Positions 1-41,891 of a stretch of DNA of 64,000 nt are shown here, piece after piece. Position 1 is the first letter of the stretch; every line of letters begins with the position of its first letter. A program made the position numbers and the translations under genes. This DNA comes from Trichodelitschia bisporula (taxonomy: Eukaryota): contig ML996687.1 of the NCBI GenBank assembly GCA_010356995.1, positions 1,055,803 through 1,119,802 of the forward strand, in the 5' to 3' direction. The notes under the pieces were generated by a model. That model made no database searches. It was not told where the DNA came from and saw only the letters and a list, made by a program, of their open reading frames with translations.

Positions 1-543
1 AGCGTCTTAGCATCCGGCGTGGCCTTCGACTCTTGAATCTGTGCGAGCAGCTCCCGAGCAGTATCCTGAACACTTTCCACGACCGATACTAAAAATTCAC
101 CCTCCTTTTTGATCCATTTATTCCGCATGGCTTTGCCCTGGCCGACACCGGCTGATTCGCCAACTTCATTCTACGCGCAGTCAGTTATCTGCCGCTATGC
201 GAGCAAAAGAACTTCATACCCCCAACTCCTTCATCGGCAGGCGCCCTTTGCTCTTCACAGCCTCCCAGACTTTGAATTCGTGGCTCCCGGACGCAGCAAT
301 GAGGGCTCCCTCCTTAGTCAAGAGGACGCGCTCAGATTCTTTGGTATCGTACTCCACCATGGCACGCGACGCCAGCCGATCCAGAGCTGCCTTAACATCT
401 TGTTGTTGGACCCCGGGAAGCGCTTCATCAGTTTTGATTTCCGGAGTGCTGGAGAGGAGATCGAGGACCTTTTGCGTTGTCGAGGCCGTATCTGCGACGG
501 GCAGTGGGGGAGGAACCGGGGCAGGCCCGCGCGTGCCAGGCAT
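1..543 (-). CDS. FRS2: Cytosolic phenylalanyl-tRNA synthetase alpha subunit, 5' part (runs off the window start)
   Basis: Exon 1 ...KAALDRLASRAMVEY...LTKEGALIAASGSHEFKVWEAV; intron ~171-219 (GTATGA..CTGAC..TAG); exon 2 ...VGQGKAMRNKWIKKEG, typical of the eukaryotic PheRS-alpha N-terminus. Confidence 0.88.
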
Positions 544-669
544 TGTGGTGTGCGGGAACAGGTGAACCTGTTACAATTCTAATCCCGATTTGCTCACTTG
601 AGGAATAATTGTTGGGCGGAGCGGGGGAAGTCTGACGCTAAGTTGGGGTAGAGTTCGAACGAGCTTCAG

Positions 670-708
670 TGACTCTGTGGGTTCGTGGAGCTTTTTGGGG
701 GTGAGTCA
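670..708. promoter_or_regulatory. Two Gcn4/CpcA (cross-pathway control) elements upstream of FRS2
   Basis: TGACTC at 670-675 and TGAGTCA at 702-708, 130-165 bp upstream of the FRS2 ATG. Confidence 0.6.
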
Positions 709-1030
709 GCCCGCACGCACGGGCGCCGGCGGGGTAATATGGGCAGGAACGAGGCTTGACTAGCCTTGCCGCACATAGGGCTGAATGCGCCACAACATCA
801 TTTTGAAGCTCGTTTCTATTGGAGTTCAGGAAGCAAACGTCAGAGATGGCTCTCGTACCCGTTCTGTAGTAACAAGTAAAAACACCCGACAGGAAATATC
901 ACATCTATGATGTGAGTTTCATGGTCGAGCTTTACATCTACCGAACCATGCAAAATCAAAAGTGATATAGAACACCGTTGAACCACTTGTGTTTGCCTGC
1001 ACGTGCATCGGAGTGCCCACACAGCATTGC

Positions 1031-37482: not shown

Positions 37483-37906
37483 ACTACACATACTGCTAGT
37501 GAACGGATCAAATGTAATTCCTTGCATTCGAGCAACTTTATAGCTCTGTTCCATAATCTCAGCCTTACTCAGCCGACACGTAAAGAAGACGGAGTATTGA
37601 TTATCCGGCTGTCTCTAGGATAGTTGGTGACTTTTTGGGGTCCAGAGCCACCCGAAAATATTGTCGCTGGTTCCCTCCGCAAAATGCCCAGAAGAAGGGG
37701 CCATAACTTTCTCGAGCAGTCCTCGGTGTGACTGCCGCCTGTTGAAAGGCACCACTTGCTCTGCGCGGCGCGACTGCAGAGCCAACCCACGTCACAGCAC
37801 TGCACCGCGTACCTCGATCTTTTTTTCCTTACACCGTACCTCCATCACTCAGACTCTGTGAGGATCTCTTGCAAACACTCCCGCGGCTAAGCCCGCTGTT
37901 GCGAAA

Positions 37907-39600
37907 ATGGGTGGCGACCTCAACCTCAAGAAGAGTTGGCACGTTGCCCTTTTATCGAACCAGAAGAAGGTGTGGCAAGCCGAGCAAGATGCGCTGGAGG
38001 AGCGGAAGAAGATCGAACTCCTCAAGCGCGAGCGCGAGGAGGAGCGTGCGATGGAGGAGCTCAATCGATTGCAAGAGGAGCATGGCGGGAAAATGAGGCA
38101 GCAGCGTGTCGACTGGATGTACAGTGGTGCGACTGCTGGGCCAGGCGGCACGAGTGAGGAGCAGGAAGCGTATCTTCTCGGTGAGTACTTCCACATGTTT
38201 GCAGTACGGAGTGCTAATGCTATCCAGGCAAGAGACGCGTGGACACTCTCGTCCTCAAGACCGACGAATCTAGATCTGTCGACAAAACTGCGAGTGAAAA
38301 CGCCATGGTCGGGGATTCAAAGGCAAACACAAGCCGTGACATCACTTCAAAGGTCGCCTTGGACCCGCTCCTTGCCATCCAGAAGCAGCGCCAGGCTGCC
38401 CTTGAGAAGCAGATGTCCGATCCTCTCATGCGGCGCCGCCTACTACAGGCGGCTACTGCTGAAGACCCAGCACGCAAGCACCGCAAGCACCACCGCGATG
38501 ACGAGGACCGCGACGGTCGAAGCAAGAGCCGGAGACACAGCGACGAGCACGACCACCACCGGAGCTCTCGCCGCTCGCACAGGCACAGATCCAGATCATG
38601 GTCTCCCGAGCGCTCCCGCCCTTCGCGTCATCATCGCAGATCACGGTCGCCGAGACGGGGCGAGGACAAACGGGATCCGGAGTACCGGAAAGATTCGCGG
38701 CGTTATCGGGAACGGTCACGATCGTGGTCACGATCGCGGTCCCCCCGCCGGGAGGACGCGAGGCGTCGTCGCTCTCGCTCTAGGTCACCTCGGCGAGCCG
38801 AGCGGCGACAGCATGAGTCCGCCCGGGATGAGCGGCCGCGTCGTCGTTCACCCTCGCCATCCCGCGTGGATCCCCGGGAATCTAAGCACAAACCCTCGCA
38901 TCGAACCGCGTCTCGCTCGCCATCGCGGTCGCCGTACCGAAAGGCTGAGCAGAAGACTTCACGTCGGTCACCTTCTCGCTCACTGTCGCCGTATAGTAGG
39001 CGAAAGCGGCTTGCTTCACAATCGACTCAGACCCGTTCACCGTCGCCTTATCGGGCGACGAGACGCGACATAAGCGCTAACCCGCGCGATGGACCTACCA
39101 GCATCTACAACGGCCGGAGGGAGAACAGCAAACGCGATGAAGCGCGCGGGGATTTATACAATGCGGCACCTGACTCTTGCGGTCGCCTTTCTCCCGCTCG
39201 GTCGGCTGCGGGACCACGCCATTCCCGCCCTGGCAACGTTGACAACGGTCATGCCAGCAACGGCCATGCTAACAACGGGAACGGTATCTCAGCGACAAAG
39301 TCAAGCGGATCGGCACCTCTAGCTCAAAGCCAAGAAAAGGCATCTGGTGCTGATGCAGAGCGCGCGGCCAAACTGGCGGCCATGCAAGCGGGCGCTGCGA
39401 AGCTTGAGGAAGCGCGCAATCGCCGATTGGCGGAGTTGGAGGCGCAGGATGCCCTTGAGCGGCAGATGGAGGAAGAGAAGCGGGCGCGGAAGGGCGGCAA
39501 GTTCGTTGCGGGGCTGCGTCGCCAGGCAGAAGTGGTTGGACTCGAGGGGCGGCTTGCAAAGGGGCGCAGTGGGTTTGGAGGGTTCGAGGAGTCCTTTTAG
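37907..39600 (+). CDS. CWC25: Step-1 splicing factor Cwc25 with long RS-rich region
   Basis: [50 protein letters not shown]. Intron 38181-38227. Confidence 0.93.
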
Positions 39601-40133
39601 ATGTTTCACGATGCAAATGAGGCGCAGTGGTTTGGGGGAAGCTGTATATGCTTCTTGATGCTTGATCAGGCATTTTCCGGGGTAGTGTTGGCGGGAGTCA
39701 TGGTACGAGAACTGTAGTCTAAGGAACCTACCGTACCGTACTACTTCCCGACGTATTTGGTGCACATACGAAAACGCGAGTCCAAAGGGGCATTTTATCT
39801 CGTCACGCCATGCAACTTTTTGGCCATCCGAGAAGCCGTCGTCGGAACGTTTACCATCCAGACTGCCGTCTATGGGCCGATGGCTAATAAATGATCCGAA
39901 AGGGGCAAGGCGCCGCACGCACTCACGCGTCGACCCCCTAAACGACGTTGAAGAGCCAATGATAGGACCTCATCTTGCAGCCGCAACCCTCAATGTCAAA
40001 AGTGTGCCAGGGATCGGCCGCTCAACAGGATTCAACGGTCAAACTCTCGCCCACCGCCATTCTCCTCCTCACCACCGTCGCCTTCTTATAACCCTCAGTC
40101 GCTTGGTTTGTGTGTTTCGACAATCACTGCGCG

Positions 40134-41891
40134 ATGGGTATTCTCGCTACCATTACTGGCCCTCTGGCCGAGCGTCTCGACGGCGCGCCTGTGCTCCTCG
40201 TTACCGGTGCCGGTTTCGCCATCTTCTTCACGCTCCTTATCGTCTGCAACGTGCTGAAGCAGTTGCTCTTCAAGAACCCCAATGAACCGCCCGTGGTCTT
40301 CCACTTGGTGCCCTTCATCGGGAGCACTGTGCTCTACGGTATGGACCCGATCAAGTTCTTCTTCGAGTGCCAAAAGAAGGTTTGTCGCGCGTCGTGTAGT
40401 CAGGGGCGCAAAGCTAACTCGTGCAGTACGGCGACGTGTTTACCTTCATTCTTCTCGGCAAGAAGACCACGGTCTACCTGGGTACCAAGGGCAACGAGTT
40501 CATTCTGAATGGCAAGCTGCGGGATGTCAACGCCGAGGAGGTCTACAGCCCGCTCACTACGCCCGTCTTTGGTAAGGGTGTGGTGTACGACTGCCCGAAC
40601 TCGAAGCTCATGGAGCAGAAGAAGGTATGGAGACAACATTGAGGGCTTAGTAACGCCGGGGCTGACAGAGGTAGTTTGTCAAGTTTGGTCTGTCCGCTGA
40701 GGCGCTTCGCTCGTATGTCACCTTGATCTCCGCCGAGGTCAACGAGCACCTGGACCGCTCGCACGCCTTCACTGCGGATAAGGGTACCTTCGATGTCGTT
40801 CACACCATGGCCGAAATCACAATCTACACTGCCTCGCGCTCGTTGCAGGGCAAGGAGGTTCGCTCCAAGTTCGATTCGTCATTTGCCGACCTTTACCACG
40901 ACCTGGATATGGGCTTTTCTCCCGTCAACTTCATGCTTCCCTGGTTCCCTCTGCCCCACAACCGCCGCCGTGATGCCGCGCACAAGAAGATGGTGGAGAC
41001 GTACATGGAAATCATCAAGGCGCGCCGCGCGTCGAATGGCAAGCGGGACTCGGAGGACATGATCTGGAACTTGATGCAGTGCAAGTACAAGGATGGCACC
41101 CCGGTCCCTGATGACGAAGTCGCACACATGATGATTGCGCTCCTGATGGCCGGCCAGCACTCGTCCAGCAGCACGTCGTCTTGGATCGTCCTCCGCCTCG
41201 CTGCCAACCCTCACATCATGGAAGAGCTGTACGATGAGCAGGTCCGCGTCATGGGCGCTGACCTCCCTCCCCTGACGTACGAAGGTCTGCAGAAGCTCCC
41301 GCTGCTTAGCCAGGTCGTCAAGGAGACGCTCCGCATGCACGCGCCTATCCACACCATCCTGCGCAAGGTCAAGTCGCCCATGTCTGTCGAGGGCACTCCG
41401 TACGTCATCCCTACCTCACACAACCTCCTCGCTGCACCGACAGTTACCTCGCTCACGCCGACCTACTTCCCCGAACCGGAGGCCTGGGACCCGCACCGCT
41501 GGGACGCAGGCAGCAAGGCCGCCAATATGACGGCGACTGCTGAGGAAGCCGACGAGGACAAGATCGACTACGGTTACGGGCTTGTGAGCAAGGGCACGTC
41601 GAGCCCGTACCTGCCGTTTGGCGCGGGCCGGCATCGCTGCATTGGCGAGCAGTTTGCCTACATCCAGCTTGGGACCATCATTGGTAATGTTGTGCGGCGG
41701 CTGCGCGTGCGCAACATTGATGGAAGCAAGCAGGTTGTGGGTACGGACTACTCGGTATGTATTTGACATCCTCTGGGTCGGCACGAAGCTAACATGTGCA
41801 GTCTTTGTTCTCGCGTCCTATGGCGCCGGCCATGATTGCGTACGAGAAGCGTGGCAAGCCGGACCCTACCAAGGGTGAGAAGGCGTTGTAG
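40134..41891 (+). CDS. CYP51: Sterol 14-alpha-demethylase, CYP51B-type (Erg11)
   Basis: [61 protein letters not shown]. Introns 40380-40427, 40625-40674 and ~41755-41800. Confidence 0.97.

What the first reader, a model, noticed from the sequence alone, without database searches (positions are those of the whole stretch)
1..41891. Supercluster of essential gene-expression genes (spliceosome, Pol II GTFs, aaRS)
Seen: of 17 genes in 42 kb, 15 are core single-copy housekeeping genes (FRS2, CLF1, PRP31, SSL2, PRP2, TFG1, VAS1, PRP46, SPP382, SEC18, TAF1, MRPL1, GUS1, CWC25, CYP51); only the NimA-like and GH16 genes are not. Established: orthologs of nearly all are essential in yeast, yet essential genes are a minority of a filamentous fungal genome. 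Inference: this is a non-random, possibly co-regulated or low-recombination housekeeping island, a eukaryotic functional cluster unrelated to secondary metabolism. After ~42 kb the content becomes mixed and intergenic gaps lengthen.
Basis: partly seen in the sequence, partly recalled or inferred. Interest (0 to 1): 0.78.

Follow-up and report, generated by a model that had tools for sequence, protein, structure and literature searches.

The report
Lineage-specific run of essential fungal genes
A 42-kb stretch of this dung fungus really does carry 17 tightly packed genes, 14 of which are indispensable in yeast, but relatives do not share the arrangement, so it looks like an extreme local case of the known tendency of essential genes to sit together rather than a working gene cluster.

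Summary
Observation confirmed. All 17 gene identities hold up (Pfam; PDB; frame reading). Fourteen of the 15 named yeast orthologues are listed as essential and MRPL1 is not. Spliced RNA contigs show separate transcripts on both strands.

Interpretation only partly supported. The density (14 of 17) is far above an independent-placement expectation, but the block is not conserved:
- In Aspergillus fumigatus, the 14 orthologues I could locate lie on all eight chromosomes. Only CLF1-PRP31 and MRPL1-GluRS stay adjacent.
- None of 80 fungal metagenome loci carrying SEC18 has any of its window neighbours.
- In named Dothideomycete relatives, PRP31, ValRS and GluRS lie on different contigs.
- Two of 15 control loci have their own, different essential-rich runs beside SEC18.

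Best reading: a lineage-specific, compact instance of known essential-gene clustering, assembled by the frequent inversions of Dothideomycetes. It is not an operon and not a demonstrated co-regulated unit.

One open lead: the 7-mer CATGCAA occurs in 8 of 12 intergenic regions of the block.

The decisive genome-wide permutation test could not be run, because no genome is held.

The parts
1..543 (-). FRS2 (PheRS alpha), 5' part only; the gene runs off the left end. ATG at 543, intron 171-219.
   Evidence: Six-frame translation; spliced RNA contig with a CT..AC joint at 170/220. No Pfam hit; the name is my reading of the N-terminal peptide.
1031..3164 (-). CLF1/Cwf4/CRNKL1, 677 aa, introns 1277-1327 and 2320-2368
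   Evidence: Pfam HAT repeats; PDB best hits Cwf4/CRNKL1/CLF1; joints; ORF model
3522..5408 (+). PRP31, 602 aa, intron 3853-3930; head-to-head with CLF1 (357 bp between the ATGs)
   Evidence: Nop + Prp31_C
5654..8128 (-). SSL2/XPB/RAD25 helicase of TFIIH, 824 aa, no intron seen
   Evidence: ERCC3_RAD25_C, E 1e-124
8516..11653 (+). PRP2/DHX16 DEAH helicase, 1045 aa, no intron seen; head-to-head with SSL2
12422..14580 (+). TFG1 (TFIIF alpha), introns 13733-13778 and 14324-14381
   Evidence: TFIIF_alpha
15444..18922 (+). VAS1 valyl-tRNA synthetase, about 1091-1107 aa, 3-4 introns
19060..19960 (-). Pyridox_ox_2 ('NimA-like') protein, 281 aa; not a core housekeeping gene
20408..22003 (+). PRP46/PLRG1 WD40 spliceosome (NTC-associated) factor; coordinates are the main ORF
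22305..24554 (-). SPP382/Ntr1/TFIP11 (G-patch + GCFC); coordinates are the main ORF
24944..27628 (-). SEC18/NSF AAA ATPase (main ORF 24944-26914 plus upstream exon ORFs)
28256..29227 (-). GH16 glycoside hydrolase; not core housekeeping
   Evidence: Glyco_hydro_16, E 2e-6
30081..33548 (+). TAF1 (DUF3591 core), main ORF
   Evidence: E 1e-162
34256..35265 (-). MRPL1 (mitochondrial uL1)
35524..37479 (+). GUS1 glutamyl-tRNA synthetase (Arc1p_N_like exon plus catalytic ORF); head-to-head with MRPL1
37862..39597 (+). CWC25 (Cir_N + CWC25 domains, two overlapping-frame ORFs joined by an intron I did not map)
39686..41763 (+). CYP51 (closest solved structure: A. fumigatus CYP51B); main ORF 40675-41763, 5' exons not mapped
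54150..54449 (+).
   Evidence: LSM domain; PDB best hits LSm8

Best explanation
The block is a real, very compact run of 17 independently transcribed genes. The window's GluRS is 100% identical to a record of Trichodelitschia bisporula (Dothideomycetes) on a 2.04-Mb contig.

It is best read as a lineage-specific juxtaposition, not a functional unit.

- Old part (inferred): two head-to-head pairs, CLF1-PRP31 and MRPL1-GluRS.
- Young part (inferred): the rest was brought together by the frequent intra-chromosomal inversions that scramble gene order in Dothideomycetes.
- Why the run persists and looks so pure (inferred): breakpoints, insertions and new genes are poorly tolerated in spacers of about 140-860 bp between indispensable genes. 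Essential genes also tend in general to collect in 'safe' (recombination-cold, low-noise) domains, with membership that differs between lineages.

Shown: gene identities, essentiality of the yeast orthologues, separate spliced transcripts, and lack of conservation.

Inferred: the assembly route and the forces that maintain the block.
For: Gene identities and essentiality:
- Identities.
- 14 of 15 yeast orthologues listed as Essential.

Transcription and spacing:
- Separate spliced contigs on both strands; 11 of 12 joints have GT..AG or CT..AC ends that match the gene strand.
- CDS spacers of 137-863 bp in 1-20 kb.

Lack of conservation:
- In A. fumigatus, 14 located orthologues lie on chromosomes 1-8. 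Adjacency is kept only for Afu1g10190/10200 (PRP31/Cwf4) and Afu5g03560/03570 (GluRS/mito-L1).
- 0 of 80 SEC18 loci carry any of 23 other window proteins. There are only weak paralogue hits, in 4 loci. 22 of these loci hold the full 10 kb on both sides.
- Named relatives, contig lengths read by eye: PRP31 vs ValRS differ in 12 of 13 organisms, ValRS vs GluRS in 18 of 18, PRP31 vs GluRS in 11 of 11.
- The one shared scaffold (Xylona) has the two genes about 295 accession numbers apart.

Fluid essential-rich runs elsewhere:
- Control loci L079 (SLD5, RPN6, SOF1, SAS10-family) and L062 (TAF12, SPC34, RPN3) sit beside SEC18. Their yeast namesakes are listed as Essential.

Literature:
- Essential genes cluster in recombination-cold regions with no functional correlation within clusters (PMC2694357, passages; PMC2258174, passages).
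- Mesosynteny by inversions in Dothideomycetes (PMC3219968, abstract; PMC3516569, passages).
Against: - The density is extreme even for a clustered model. At p=0.26, P(at least 14 of 17) is 2e-6 per position, about 0.02 per 10,000-gene genome.
- Six of the 17 genes are spliceosomal (seven in the window with LSm8). Pal and Hurst-type clusters are said to lack such functional correlation.
- Yeast essential-gene clusters are described as 'frozen', whereas this block is not conserved.
- CATGCAA occurs in 8 of 12 intergenic regions of the block. A maximum that high arose in 2 of 1000 second-order Markov simulations. This could mark shared regulation.
- No relative closer than about 70-80% protein identity was available, so the age of the block is unknown.
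- The genome's own background density could not be measured.
Confidence: 0.6

Rival explanations
1. Pure chance. Gene order in this lineage is effectively shuffled. A scan that reads very many windows, and would flag enrichment of any functional class, has picked the extreme tail.
For: - No conservation in any relative examined.
- The class definitions ('essential', 'gene expression') were chosen after seeing the genes.
- With a liberal local p of 0.30, P(at least 14 of 17) times 10,000 positions is 0.12 per genome.
- At most 14 of 55 (25%) Pfam-annotated neighbours of SEC18 in 15 control loci belong to families whose yeast namesake is essential.
Against: - At the more realistic p of 0.10-0.15 for a filamentous fungus (my estimate, not measured), the per-genome expectation is 5e-8 to 1e-5.
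- Essential genes are known not to be placed independently.
- Two control loci also show essential-rich runs, which points to a general process.
Confidence: 0.2
2. The block is a selected housekeeping island of this lineage, whose genes (spliceosome, Pol II factors, aaRS) share regulation through a common promoter element and/or a protected chromatin or recombination domain.
For: - CATGCAA(C) is present in 8 of 12 intergenic regions of the block. No mononucleotide shuffle out of 200, and 2 of 1000 Markov simulations, reached 8.
- The whole window has only 10 copies, with one in about 12.2 kb of crude non-genic DNA right of 42 kb.
- There are five head-to-head pairs with short shared promoters.
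- There are six spliceosome genes among 17. P is about 1e-7 at a class frequency of 1.5% (the frequency is my assumption).
Against: - The motif was found post hoc, has no conserved flanks and no consistent orientation. It is at chance level upstream of SEC18 in other fungi: 11 of 64 loci against about 11.7 expected.
- The motif may be a general promoter word of this genome; I could not test that.
- The block is not conserved (calls listed above).
- Members belong to at least six different machineries.
- Contig depths differ by up to about 20-fold, though this is a poor measure.
Confidence: 0.12
3. Recognition bias. The block only looks pure because a reader without tools names conserved genes and overlooks small or lineage-specific genes between them.
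For: - FRS2 itself has no Pfam hit.
- Exon-level models for 20-42 kb were not built.
- One low-depth minus-strand spliced joint lies between PRP2 and TFG1.
Against: - Gene spans cover roughly 84% of the 41.9 kb (my sum from the ORF spans).
- RNA contigs in 1-20 kb show only the eight named genes.
- None of the ORFs of 75-149 aa scanned in the gaps of 1-42 kb gave a new family, apart from the GluRS N-terminal exon.
Confidence: 0.03

Closest known systems
Essential-gene clusters in recombination-cold domains of budding yeast (Pal and Hurst 2003, as cited in PMC2694357 and PMC2258174; low-noise model of Batada and Hurst as cited there)
   Same: - Local density of genes with lethal null phenotype far above the background. 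The yeast random neighbourhood density is 0.21 (PMC2258174); here it is 14 of 17.
- Members come from several machineries and lie on both strands.
   Different: - Yeast clusters are reported to be conserved ('frozen') and to lack functional correlation.
- This block is not conserved in any relative examined and is one-third spliceosomal.
- Recombination rate is unknown here.
Ancestral locally collinear blocks of fission yeasts (PMC8537764)
   Same: Blocks of about eight genes whose GO enrichments are explained by essential-gene density rather than by shared function or co-expression (abstract and section 3.9).
   Different: Those blocks are defined by conservation across four species. This block fails that criterion.
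Mesosynteny and conserved micro-blocks in Dothideomycetes (PMC3219968; PMC3516569)
   Same: Same class of fungi. Gene order is reshuffled by frequent intra-chromosomal inversions with a few retained micro-blocks. The two retained head-to-head pairs fit that picture.
   Different: - Whether the dispersed orthologues stay on one homologous chromosome in relatives (the definition of mesosynteny) could not be tested.
- In most named relatives, the three anchor genes lie on different contigs.
Adjacent co-regulated gene pairs or functional clustering of related genes in fungi (e.g. PMC10218983; search listing and abstract only)
   Same: CLF1-PRP31 is a divergent pair of two spliceosome genes, adjacent both here and in A. 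fumigatus.
   Different: That literature concerns pairs or small sets sharing one function and co-expression. The 17-gene block is heterogeneous, and its co-expression is untested.

Membership tests
Essential-gene cluster (Pal and Hurst type) | Local density of essential genes significantly above background | tested here: met
   - 14 of 17 have yeast orthologues listed as Essential.
- External baselines: 0.21 in yeast neighbourhoods and at most 14 of 55 around SEC18 in 15 other fungal loci.
- Binomial tail 1e-7 at p=0.21.
- This genome's own background was not measured.
Essential-gene cluster (Pal and Hurst type) | Lies in a domain of low meiotic recombination | not testable with these tools
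   No population, cross or hotspot data. No AT-rich or centromere-like DNA in the window (GC 0.51-0.63 in 2-kb bins).
Essential-gene cluster (Pal and Hurst type) | Linkage of the members preserved in related species ('frozen') | tested here: not met
   A. fumigatus, all eight chromosomes; 0 of 80 loci; anchor genes on different contigs.
Co-regulated functional gene cluster | Members act in one pathway or complex | tested here: not met
   6 spliceosome, 3 Pol II general factors, 3 aaRS, and 1 each of vesicle fusion, mitoribosome, sterol synthesis, GH16 and Pyridox_ox_2.
Co-regulated functional gene cluster | Shared cis-regulatory element | tested here: inconclusive
   CATGCAA in 8 of 12 intergenic regions. 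Found post hoc and not testable genome-wide. Not conserved upstream of SEC18 elsewhere.
Co-regulated functional gene cluster | Co-expression across conditions | not testable with these tools
   Only two contig-level runs of one sample. Contig depth cannot rank genes.
Co-regulated functional gene cluster | Clustering conserved across species | tested here: not met
   Not met for the block. Met only for the pairs CLF1-PRP31 and MRPL1-GluRS in A. fumigatus.
Operon-like or polycistronic unit | Same-strand genes on one transcript | tested here: not met
   - 9 genes on the plus strand and 8 on the minus strand.
- Separate contigs per gene.
- The only shared contigs join convergent neighbours (PRP31/SSL2, VAS1/Pyridox_ox_2), which cannot be one mRNA.
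Conserved head-to-head gene pair with shared promoter | Divergent orientation with a short spacer, and adjacency kept in a distant lineage | tested here: met
   - CLF1(-)/PRP31(+): 357 bp between the ATGs; adjacent as Afu1g10200/10190.
- MRPL1(-)/GluRS(+): about 260 bp between ORFs; adjacent as Afu5g03570/03560.
- Orientation in A. fumigatus is not given by the table.

The most novel reading that the evidence does not exclude
In the Trichodelitschia lineage, selection has gathered indispensable gene-expression genes (six spliceosome factors, TFIIH/TFIIF/TFIID subunits, three aaRS) into one protected, compact chromosomal domain. Their promoters share a CATGCAA(C) element. On this reading the block is a eukaryotic 'essential-gene island' with common regulation, assembled de novo rather than inherited.
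Probability: 0.1. Interest if true: 0.6.

Novelty: new member of a known kind. Interest (0 to 1): 0.27.

Why it matters
If the block is only an extreme, lineage-specific case of essential-gene clustering, its value is modest. It gives a clean example, in a filamentous fungus with rapid inversion-driven reshuffling, that essential-rich runs form and dissolve with changing membership while very tight head-to-head pairs survive.

That bears on an old question: are such clusters selected (for low noise or low recombination), or are they a neutral by-product of short spacers next to indispensable genes?

If the shared promoter word proved to be a real housekeeping element, it would be a usable handle on core-promoter logic in Dothideomycetes.

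Tried and rejected
Steps that could not be run:
- Whole-genome permutation: no genome is held.

Earlier scan notes: nothing relevant.

Synteny look-ups in other fungi:
- N. crassa (PMC5395666 supplements): only differentially expressed genes are listed. NCU02623, next in number to cyp51 NCU02624, is 'mitochondrial hypoxia responsive', and the other neighbours are absent. Too incomplete to use.
- F. 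graminearum (PMC3037902 supplements): ids without descriptions, so unusable.
- A. fumigatus table: no rows for 'Ssl2', 'TFIIF', 'Sec18', 'Cwc25', 'Prp46' or 'Cwf25' under those words. SSL2, TFG1, SEC18 and PRP46 were found under other names. The PRP46 = 'Prp5' match follows S. pombe naming and is my inference. CWC25 was not located. The Pyridox_ox_2 and GH16 genes were not searched.

RNA:
- One search listed no holder on record as RNA. The two runs are labelled 'RNA? (a guess)'. I read them as spliced RNA from the joints.
- No RNA family and no tRNA in the window.

Other checks:
- Tandem repeats: only short arrays; no repeat or transposon marks the 42-kb boundary.
- I asked whether the conserved divergent neighbour of SEC18 in other fungi (a Cir_N-domain protein) is the CWC25 orthologue. 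It is not: no CWC25 domain in 8 of 8 copies scanned at E up to 0.1, no BLASTP similarity beyond the first residues, and no tblastn hit in the window.
- Literature search for the motif words: 3 papers, none on fungi. One mammalian protein, TdIF1, binds GNTGCATG.

Supplementary-file look-ups are exhausted (15 of 15).

Full report
WHAT IS THERE

The window is ordinary, repeat-poor fungal DNA. GC is 0.51-0.63 in 2-kb bins. It has no tRNA or Rfam family and only short tandem arrays.

Pfam searches:
- One search scanned 59 of the 99 long ORFs.
- One search scanned 144 of the 279 ORFs of 75-149 aa.
- Family-specific domains were found for PRP31 (Nop + Prp31_C), SSL2 (ERCC3_RAD25_C), TFG1 (TFIIF_alpha), SPP382 (G-patch + GCFC), TAF1 (DUF3591) and CWC25 (Cir_N + CWC25).

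PDB sequence searches resolved the multi-member families:
- CLF1
- PRP2/DHX16, ranked ahead of PRP22/16/43
- PRP46
- SEC18/NSF
- ValRS
- mitochondrial uL1
- GluRS, ranked ahead of GlnRS
- CYP51, closest to A. fumigatus CYP51B

FRS2 is present only as its first exon on the minus strand (217-543). I recognise it from the translated peptide, not from a database hit.

The two non-housekeeping genes are a Pyridox_ox_2 protein and a GH16 hydrolase.

Right of 42 kb the content is mixed: GT25, PPTase, Aminotran_5, Atg3/10-like, Inositol_P, hydrophobin, Kelch and EMP24. One more spliceosome-related gene, LSm8, lies at about 54.2 kb.

TRANSCRIPTS

Two runs of one sample hold the stretch. When laid on 1-20,000, their contigs skip 46-78-nt segments.
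- 11 of the 12 joints have GT..AG ends on plus-strand genes or CT..AC ends on minus-strand genes. I therefore read the contigs as spliced RNA, although the tool labels the kind as a guess.
- They give separate units for FRS2, CLF1, PRP2 and TFG1.
- The only contigs that span two genes join convergent neighbours (PRP31/SSL2, VAS1/Pyridox_ox_2).
- With these introns, the coding models are CLF1 677 aa, PRP31 602 aa, SSL2 824 aa, PRP2 1045 aa, TFG1 684 aa, VAS1 about 1091-1107 aa and Pyridox_ox_2 281 aa. CDS-to-CDS spacers are 137-863 bp.
- Contig depths differ by up to about 20-fold between genes. The tool warns that this is a poor measure of expression.

This is not an operon. Nine genes are on the plus strand and eight on the minus strand.

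ESSENTIALITY

In the strain tables of the yeast YETI library (PMC8182650, supplement files 4 and 7):
- Listed as Essential: FRS2, CLF1, PRP31, SSL2, PRP2, TFG1, VAS1, PRP46, SPP382, SEC18, TAF1, GUS1, CWC25 and ERG11.
- Listed as Nonessential: MRPL1.

So 14 of the 17 genes have a yeast-essential orthologue. Essentiality in this fungus itself is untested. A second CYP51 paralogue, common in moulds (recalled), would make that gene individually dispensable.

IS IT MORE THAN CHANCE?

Analytically, P(at least 14 of 17) depends on the per-gene frequency p of essential orthologues:

| p | P per position | Expected per 10,000 positions |
|---|---|---|
| 0.10 | 5e-12 | 5e-8 |
| 0.21 | 1e-7 | 1e-3 |
| 0.26 | 2e-6 | 0.02 |
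| 0.30 | 1e-5 | 0.12 |

Baselines for p:
- 'About one-fifth' of yeast genes are essential (PMC3245137, abstract in the listing).
- The random neighbourhood density in yeast is 0.21 (PMC2258174).
- For a filamentous fungus of about 10,000 genes I expect nearer 0.1. This is my estimate, not measured.

Empirical control. I used the 22 SEC18 loci from other fungi that have a full 10 kb on both sides.
- They collapse to 15 non-redundant loci.
- I scanned the 229 non-SEC18 ORFs of 130 aa or more against Pfam.
- Merging split ORFs by eye gives 55 annotated neighbour genes.
- At most 14 (25%) belong to families whose yeast namesake is listed as Essential: Nop56/58, TAF13, Mo25/HYM1 (twice), RasGEF/CDC25 (three times), TAF12, SPC34, RPN3, SLD5, RPN6, SOF1 and SAS10.
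- The family-to-gene mapping is my inference, some loci share neighbours, and unannotated ORFs are not in the denominator.

Two of the 15 loci have their own essential-rich runs next to SEC18: L079 with 4 of 7 and L062 with 3 of 8. In the window, 5 of the 8 neighbours within 10 kb of SEC18 are essential.

So the local density is at the top of, but not outside, what other fungi show. What is unusual is that it continues for 42 kb.

The scan is very large and the gene classes were defined after the fact. Chance is therefore unlikely but not excluded.

IS IT CONSERVED?

No, in every comparison I could make.

(a) Aspergillus fumigatus. An ordered gene table (PMC2526178, supplement file 3) places 14 orthologues on all eight chromosomes:

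| Gene(s) | Locus tag(s) |
|---|---|
| PRP31 / CLF1 | Afu1g10190 / Afu1g10200 |
| PRP46 ('Prp5', S. pombe naming, my inference) | Afu1g10710 |
| PRP2 | Afu2g07710 |
| FRS2 | Afu2g13030 |
| TFG1 | Afu3g04230 |
| SEC18 | Afu3g12510 |
| SPP382 | Afu4g11570 |
| SSL2 | Afu5g03320 |
| GluRS / mito-L1 | Afu5g03560 / Afu5g03570 |
| TAF1 | Afu6g08600 |
| cyp51B | Afu7g03740 |
| ValRS | Afu8g04800 |

Only the two pairs shown on shared rows are adjacent.

(b) Metagenome contigs. A scan with SEC18 returned 80 fungal loci (57-82% identity, up to 10 kb each side). tblastn with 24 window proteins found SEC18 in all 80 and none of the other 23. The only other hits were weak paralogue matches in four loci.

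Instead, 31 of the 50 loci with at least 3.5 kb upstream carry a different, conserved divergent neighbour: a Cir_N-domain protein that is not CWC25 and is absent from the window.

(c) Named relatives. Homologue searches show the nearest named relatives are Dothideomycetes at only about 70-80% identity. The window's own GluRS is a record of Trichodelitschia bisporula on a 2,035,263-bp contig.

- PRP31 and ValRS, 10 kb apart here, lie on different contigs in 12 of 13 organisms.
- ValRS and GluRS lie on different contigs in 18 of 18.
- PRP31 and GluRS lie on different contigs in 11 of 11.

Locus tags are thousands apart in Neodothiora, Sarea and Cudoniella. In Xylona, the one case with a shared scaffold, accession numbers are about 295 apart.

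No relative closer than this was available, so the age of the block within Phaeotrichales is unknown.

HOW IT MOST LIKELY CAME ABOUT

Dothideomycete gene order is scrambled by frequent intra-chromosomal inversions, while a minority of micro-blocks survive (PMC3219968, abstract; PMC3516569, passages).

In yeasts:
- Essential genes cluster in recombination-cold regions, without functional correlation inside clusters (PMC2694357).
- Short intergene distance and flanking essential-gene density are the best predictors that neighbours stay together (PMC2258174).
- In fission yeasts, GO enrichments of conserved blocks are explained by essential-gene density, not by function or co-expression (PMC8537764).

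Putting these together, I read the block as two old head-to-head pairs plus genes brought alongside by inversions in this lineage. It is kept pure because the tiny spacers beside indispensable genes tolerate few breakpoints, insertions or new genes (inference).

The different essential-rich runs beside SEC18 in L062 and L079 fit a general process with fluid membership.

- Six of 17 genes are spliceosomal.
- The 7-mer CATGCAA is present in 8 of the 12 intergenic regions of the block. No mononucleotide shuffle (0 of 200), and only 2 of 1000 second-order Markov simulations, gave any 7-mer that widespread.
- The whole window holds just 10 copies, the number expected by chance. Eight lie in those regions, and only one lies in about 12 kb of crude non-genic DNA right of 42 kb.

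Against this:
- The motif was found post hoc.
- It has no conserved flanks or consistent orientation.
- It is at chance level upstream of SEC18 in 64 other fungal loci.
- I found no fungal literature on it.
- It may simply be a common promoter word of this genome.

VERDICT

- Observation: confirmed.
- Interpretation: partly supported. The block is non-random relative to independent placement. It is not a conserved or demonstrably co-regulated functional cluster.
- Kind: a new instance of a known phenomenon, of modest interest.

Noticed in passing
window 947, 8410, 15098(-), 24561, 27665, 29308, 35385(-), 39809 (intergenic); 39381 (CWC25 coding); 54982: The 7-mer CATGCAA (six copies extend to CATGCAAC) is confined almost entirely to intergenic regions of the 1-42 kb block. 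It occurs in 8 of 12 such regions, more than any 7-mer reached in 998 of 1000 Markov simulations. The window total of 10 is what chance gives. This may be a promoter word.
   Followed up: partly
This makes seven spliceosome-related genes in 64 kb.
   Followed up: partly
L005-L080 (e.g. L036:7496-8776, L076:1859-3385), upstream of SEC18: In 31 of 50 fungal metagenome loci with enough upstream DNA, SEC18 has a conserved divergent neighbour encoding a protein of about 330-510 aa whose only recognisable feature is an N-terminal Cir_N domain. It is not CWC25. The pair is broken in this window and in the loci most similar to it.
   Followed up: partly
L079:1369-6528 and L062:1-8328: Other fungi have their own, different runs of essential-type genes beside SEC18. 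L079 has SLD5, RPN6, SOF1 and a SAS10/UTP3-family gene. L062 has TAF12, SPC34, RPN3 and RPL18.
   Followed up: partly
window 3164-3522 and about 35265-35524: The head-to-head pairs CLF1/PRP31 (both spliceosome) and MRPL1/GluRS share very short promoters. They are also adjacent in Aspergillus fumigatus (Afu1g10200/10190; Afu5g03570/03560), so they are much older than the block.
   Followed up: partly
window 11705-11758 (-): A low-depth contig (depth 20.5, run X1 only) carries a minus-strand-type joint (CT..AC, skipping 52 nt) between the end of PRP2 and the start of TFG1. It could be a spliced antisense or non-coding transcript.
   Followed up: no
window 5408-5654 and 18922-19060: The convergent neighbours PRP31/SSL2 and VAS1/Pyridox_ox_2 have only 245 and 137 bp between stop codons and are assembled into single RNA contigs. 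Their 3' ends probably overlap.
   Followed up: no
window 18459-18508: One joint inside VAS1 skips 48 nt with ends read as AG..GC (2 nt of ambiguity). With it the protein is 1091 aa, without it 1107 aa. The exact intron borders are not resolved.
   Followed up: no
yeast ORF names in PMC8182650 supplement: In S. cerevisiae the 15 orthologues lie on nine chromosomes. However, PRP31 (YGR091W) and VAS1 (YGR094W) are three ORFs apart, PRP2 (YNR011C) is four ORFs from ATG3 (YNR007C), and five of the 15 are on chromosome VII. By my rough estimate this is marginal after allowing for the many possible pairs.
   Followed up: no
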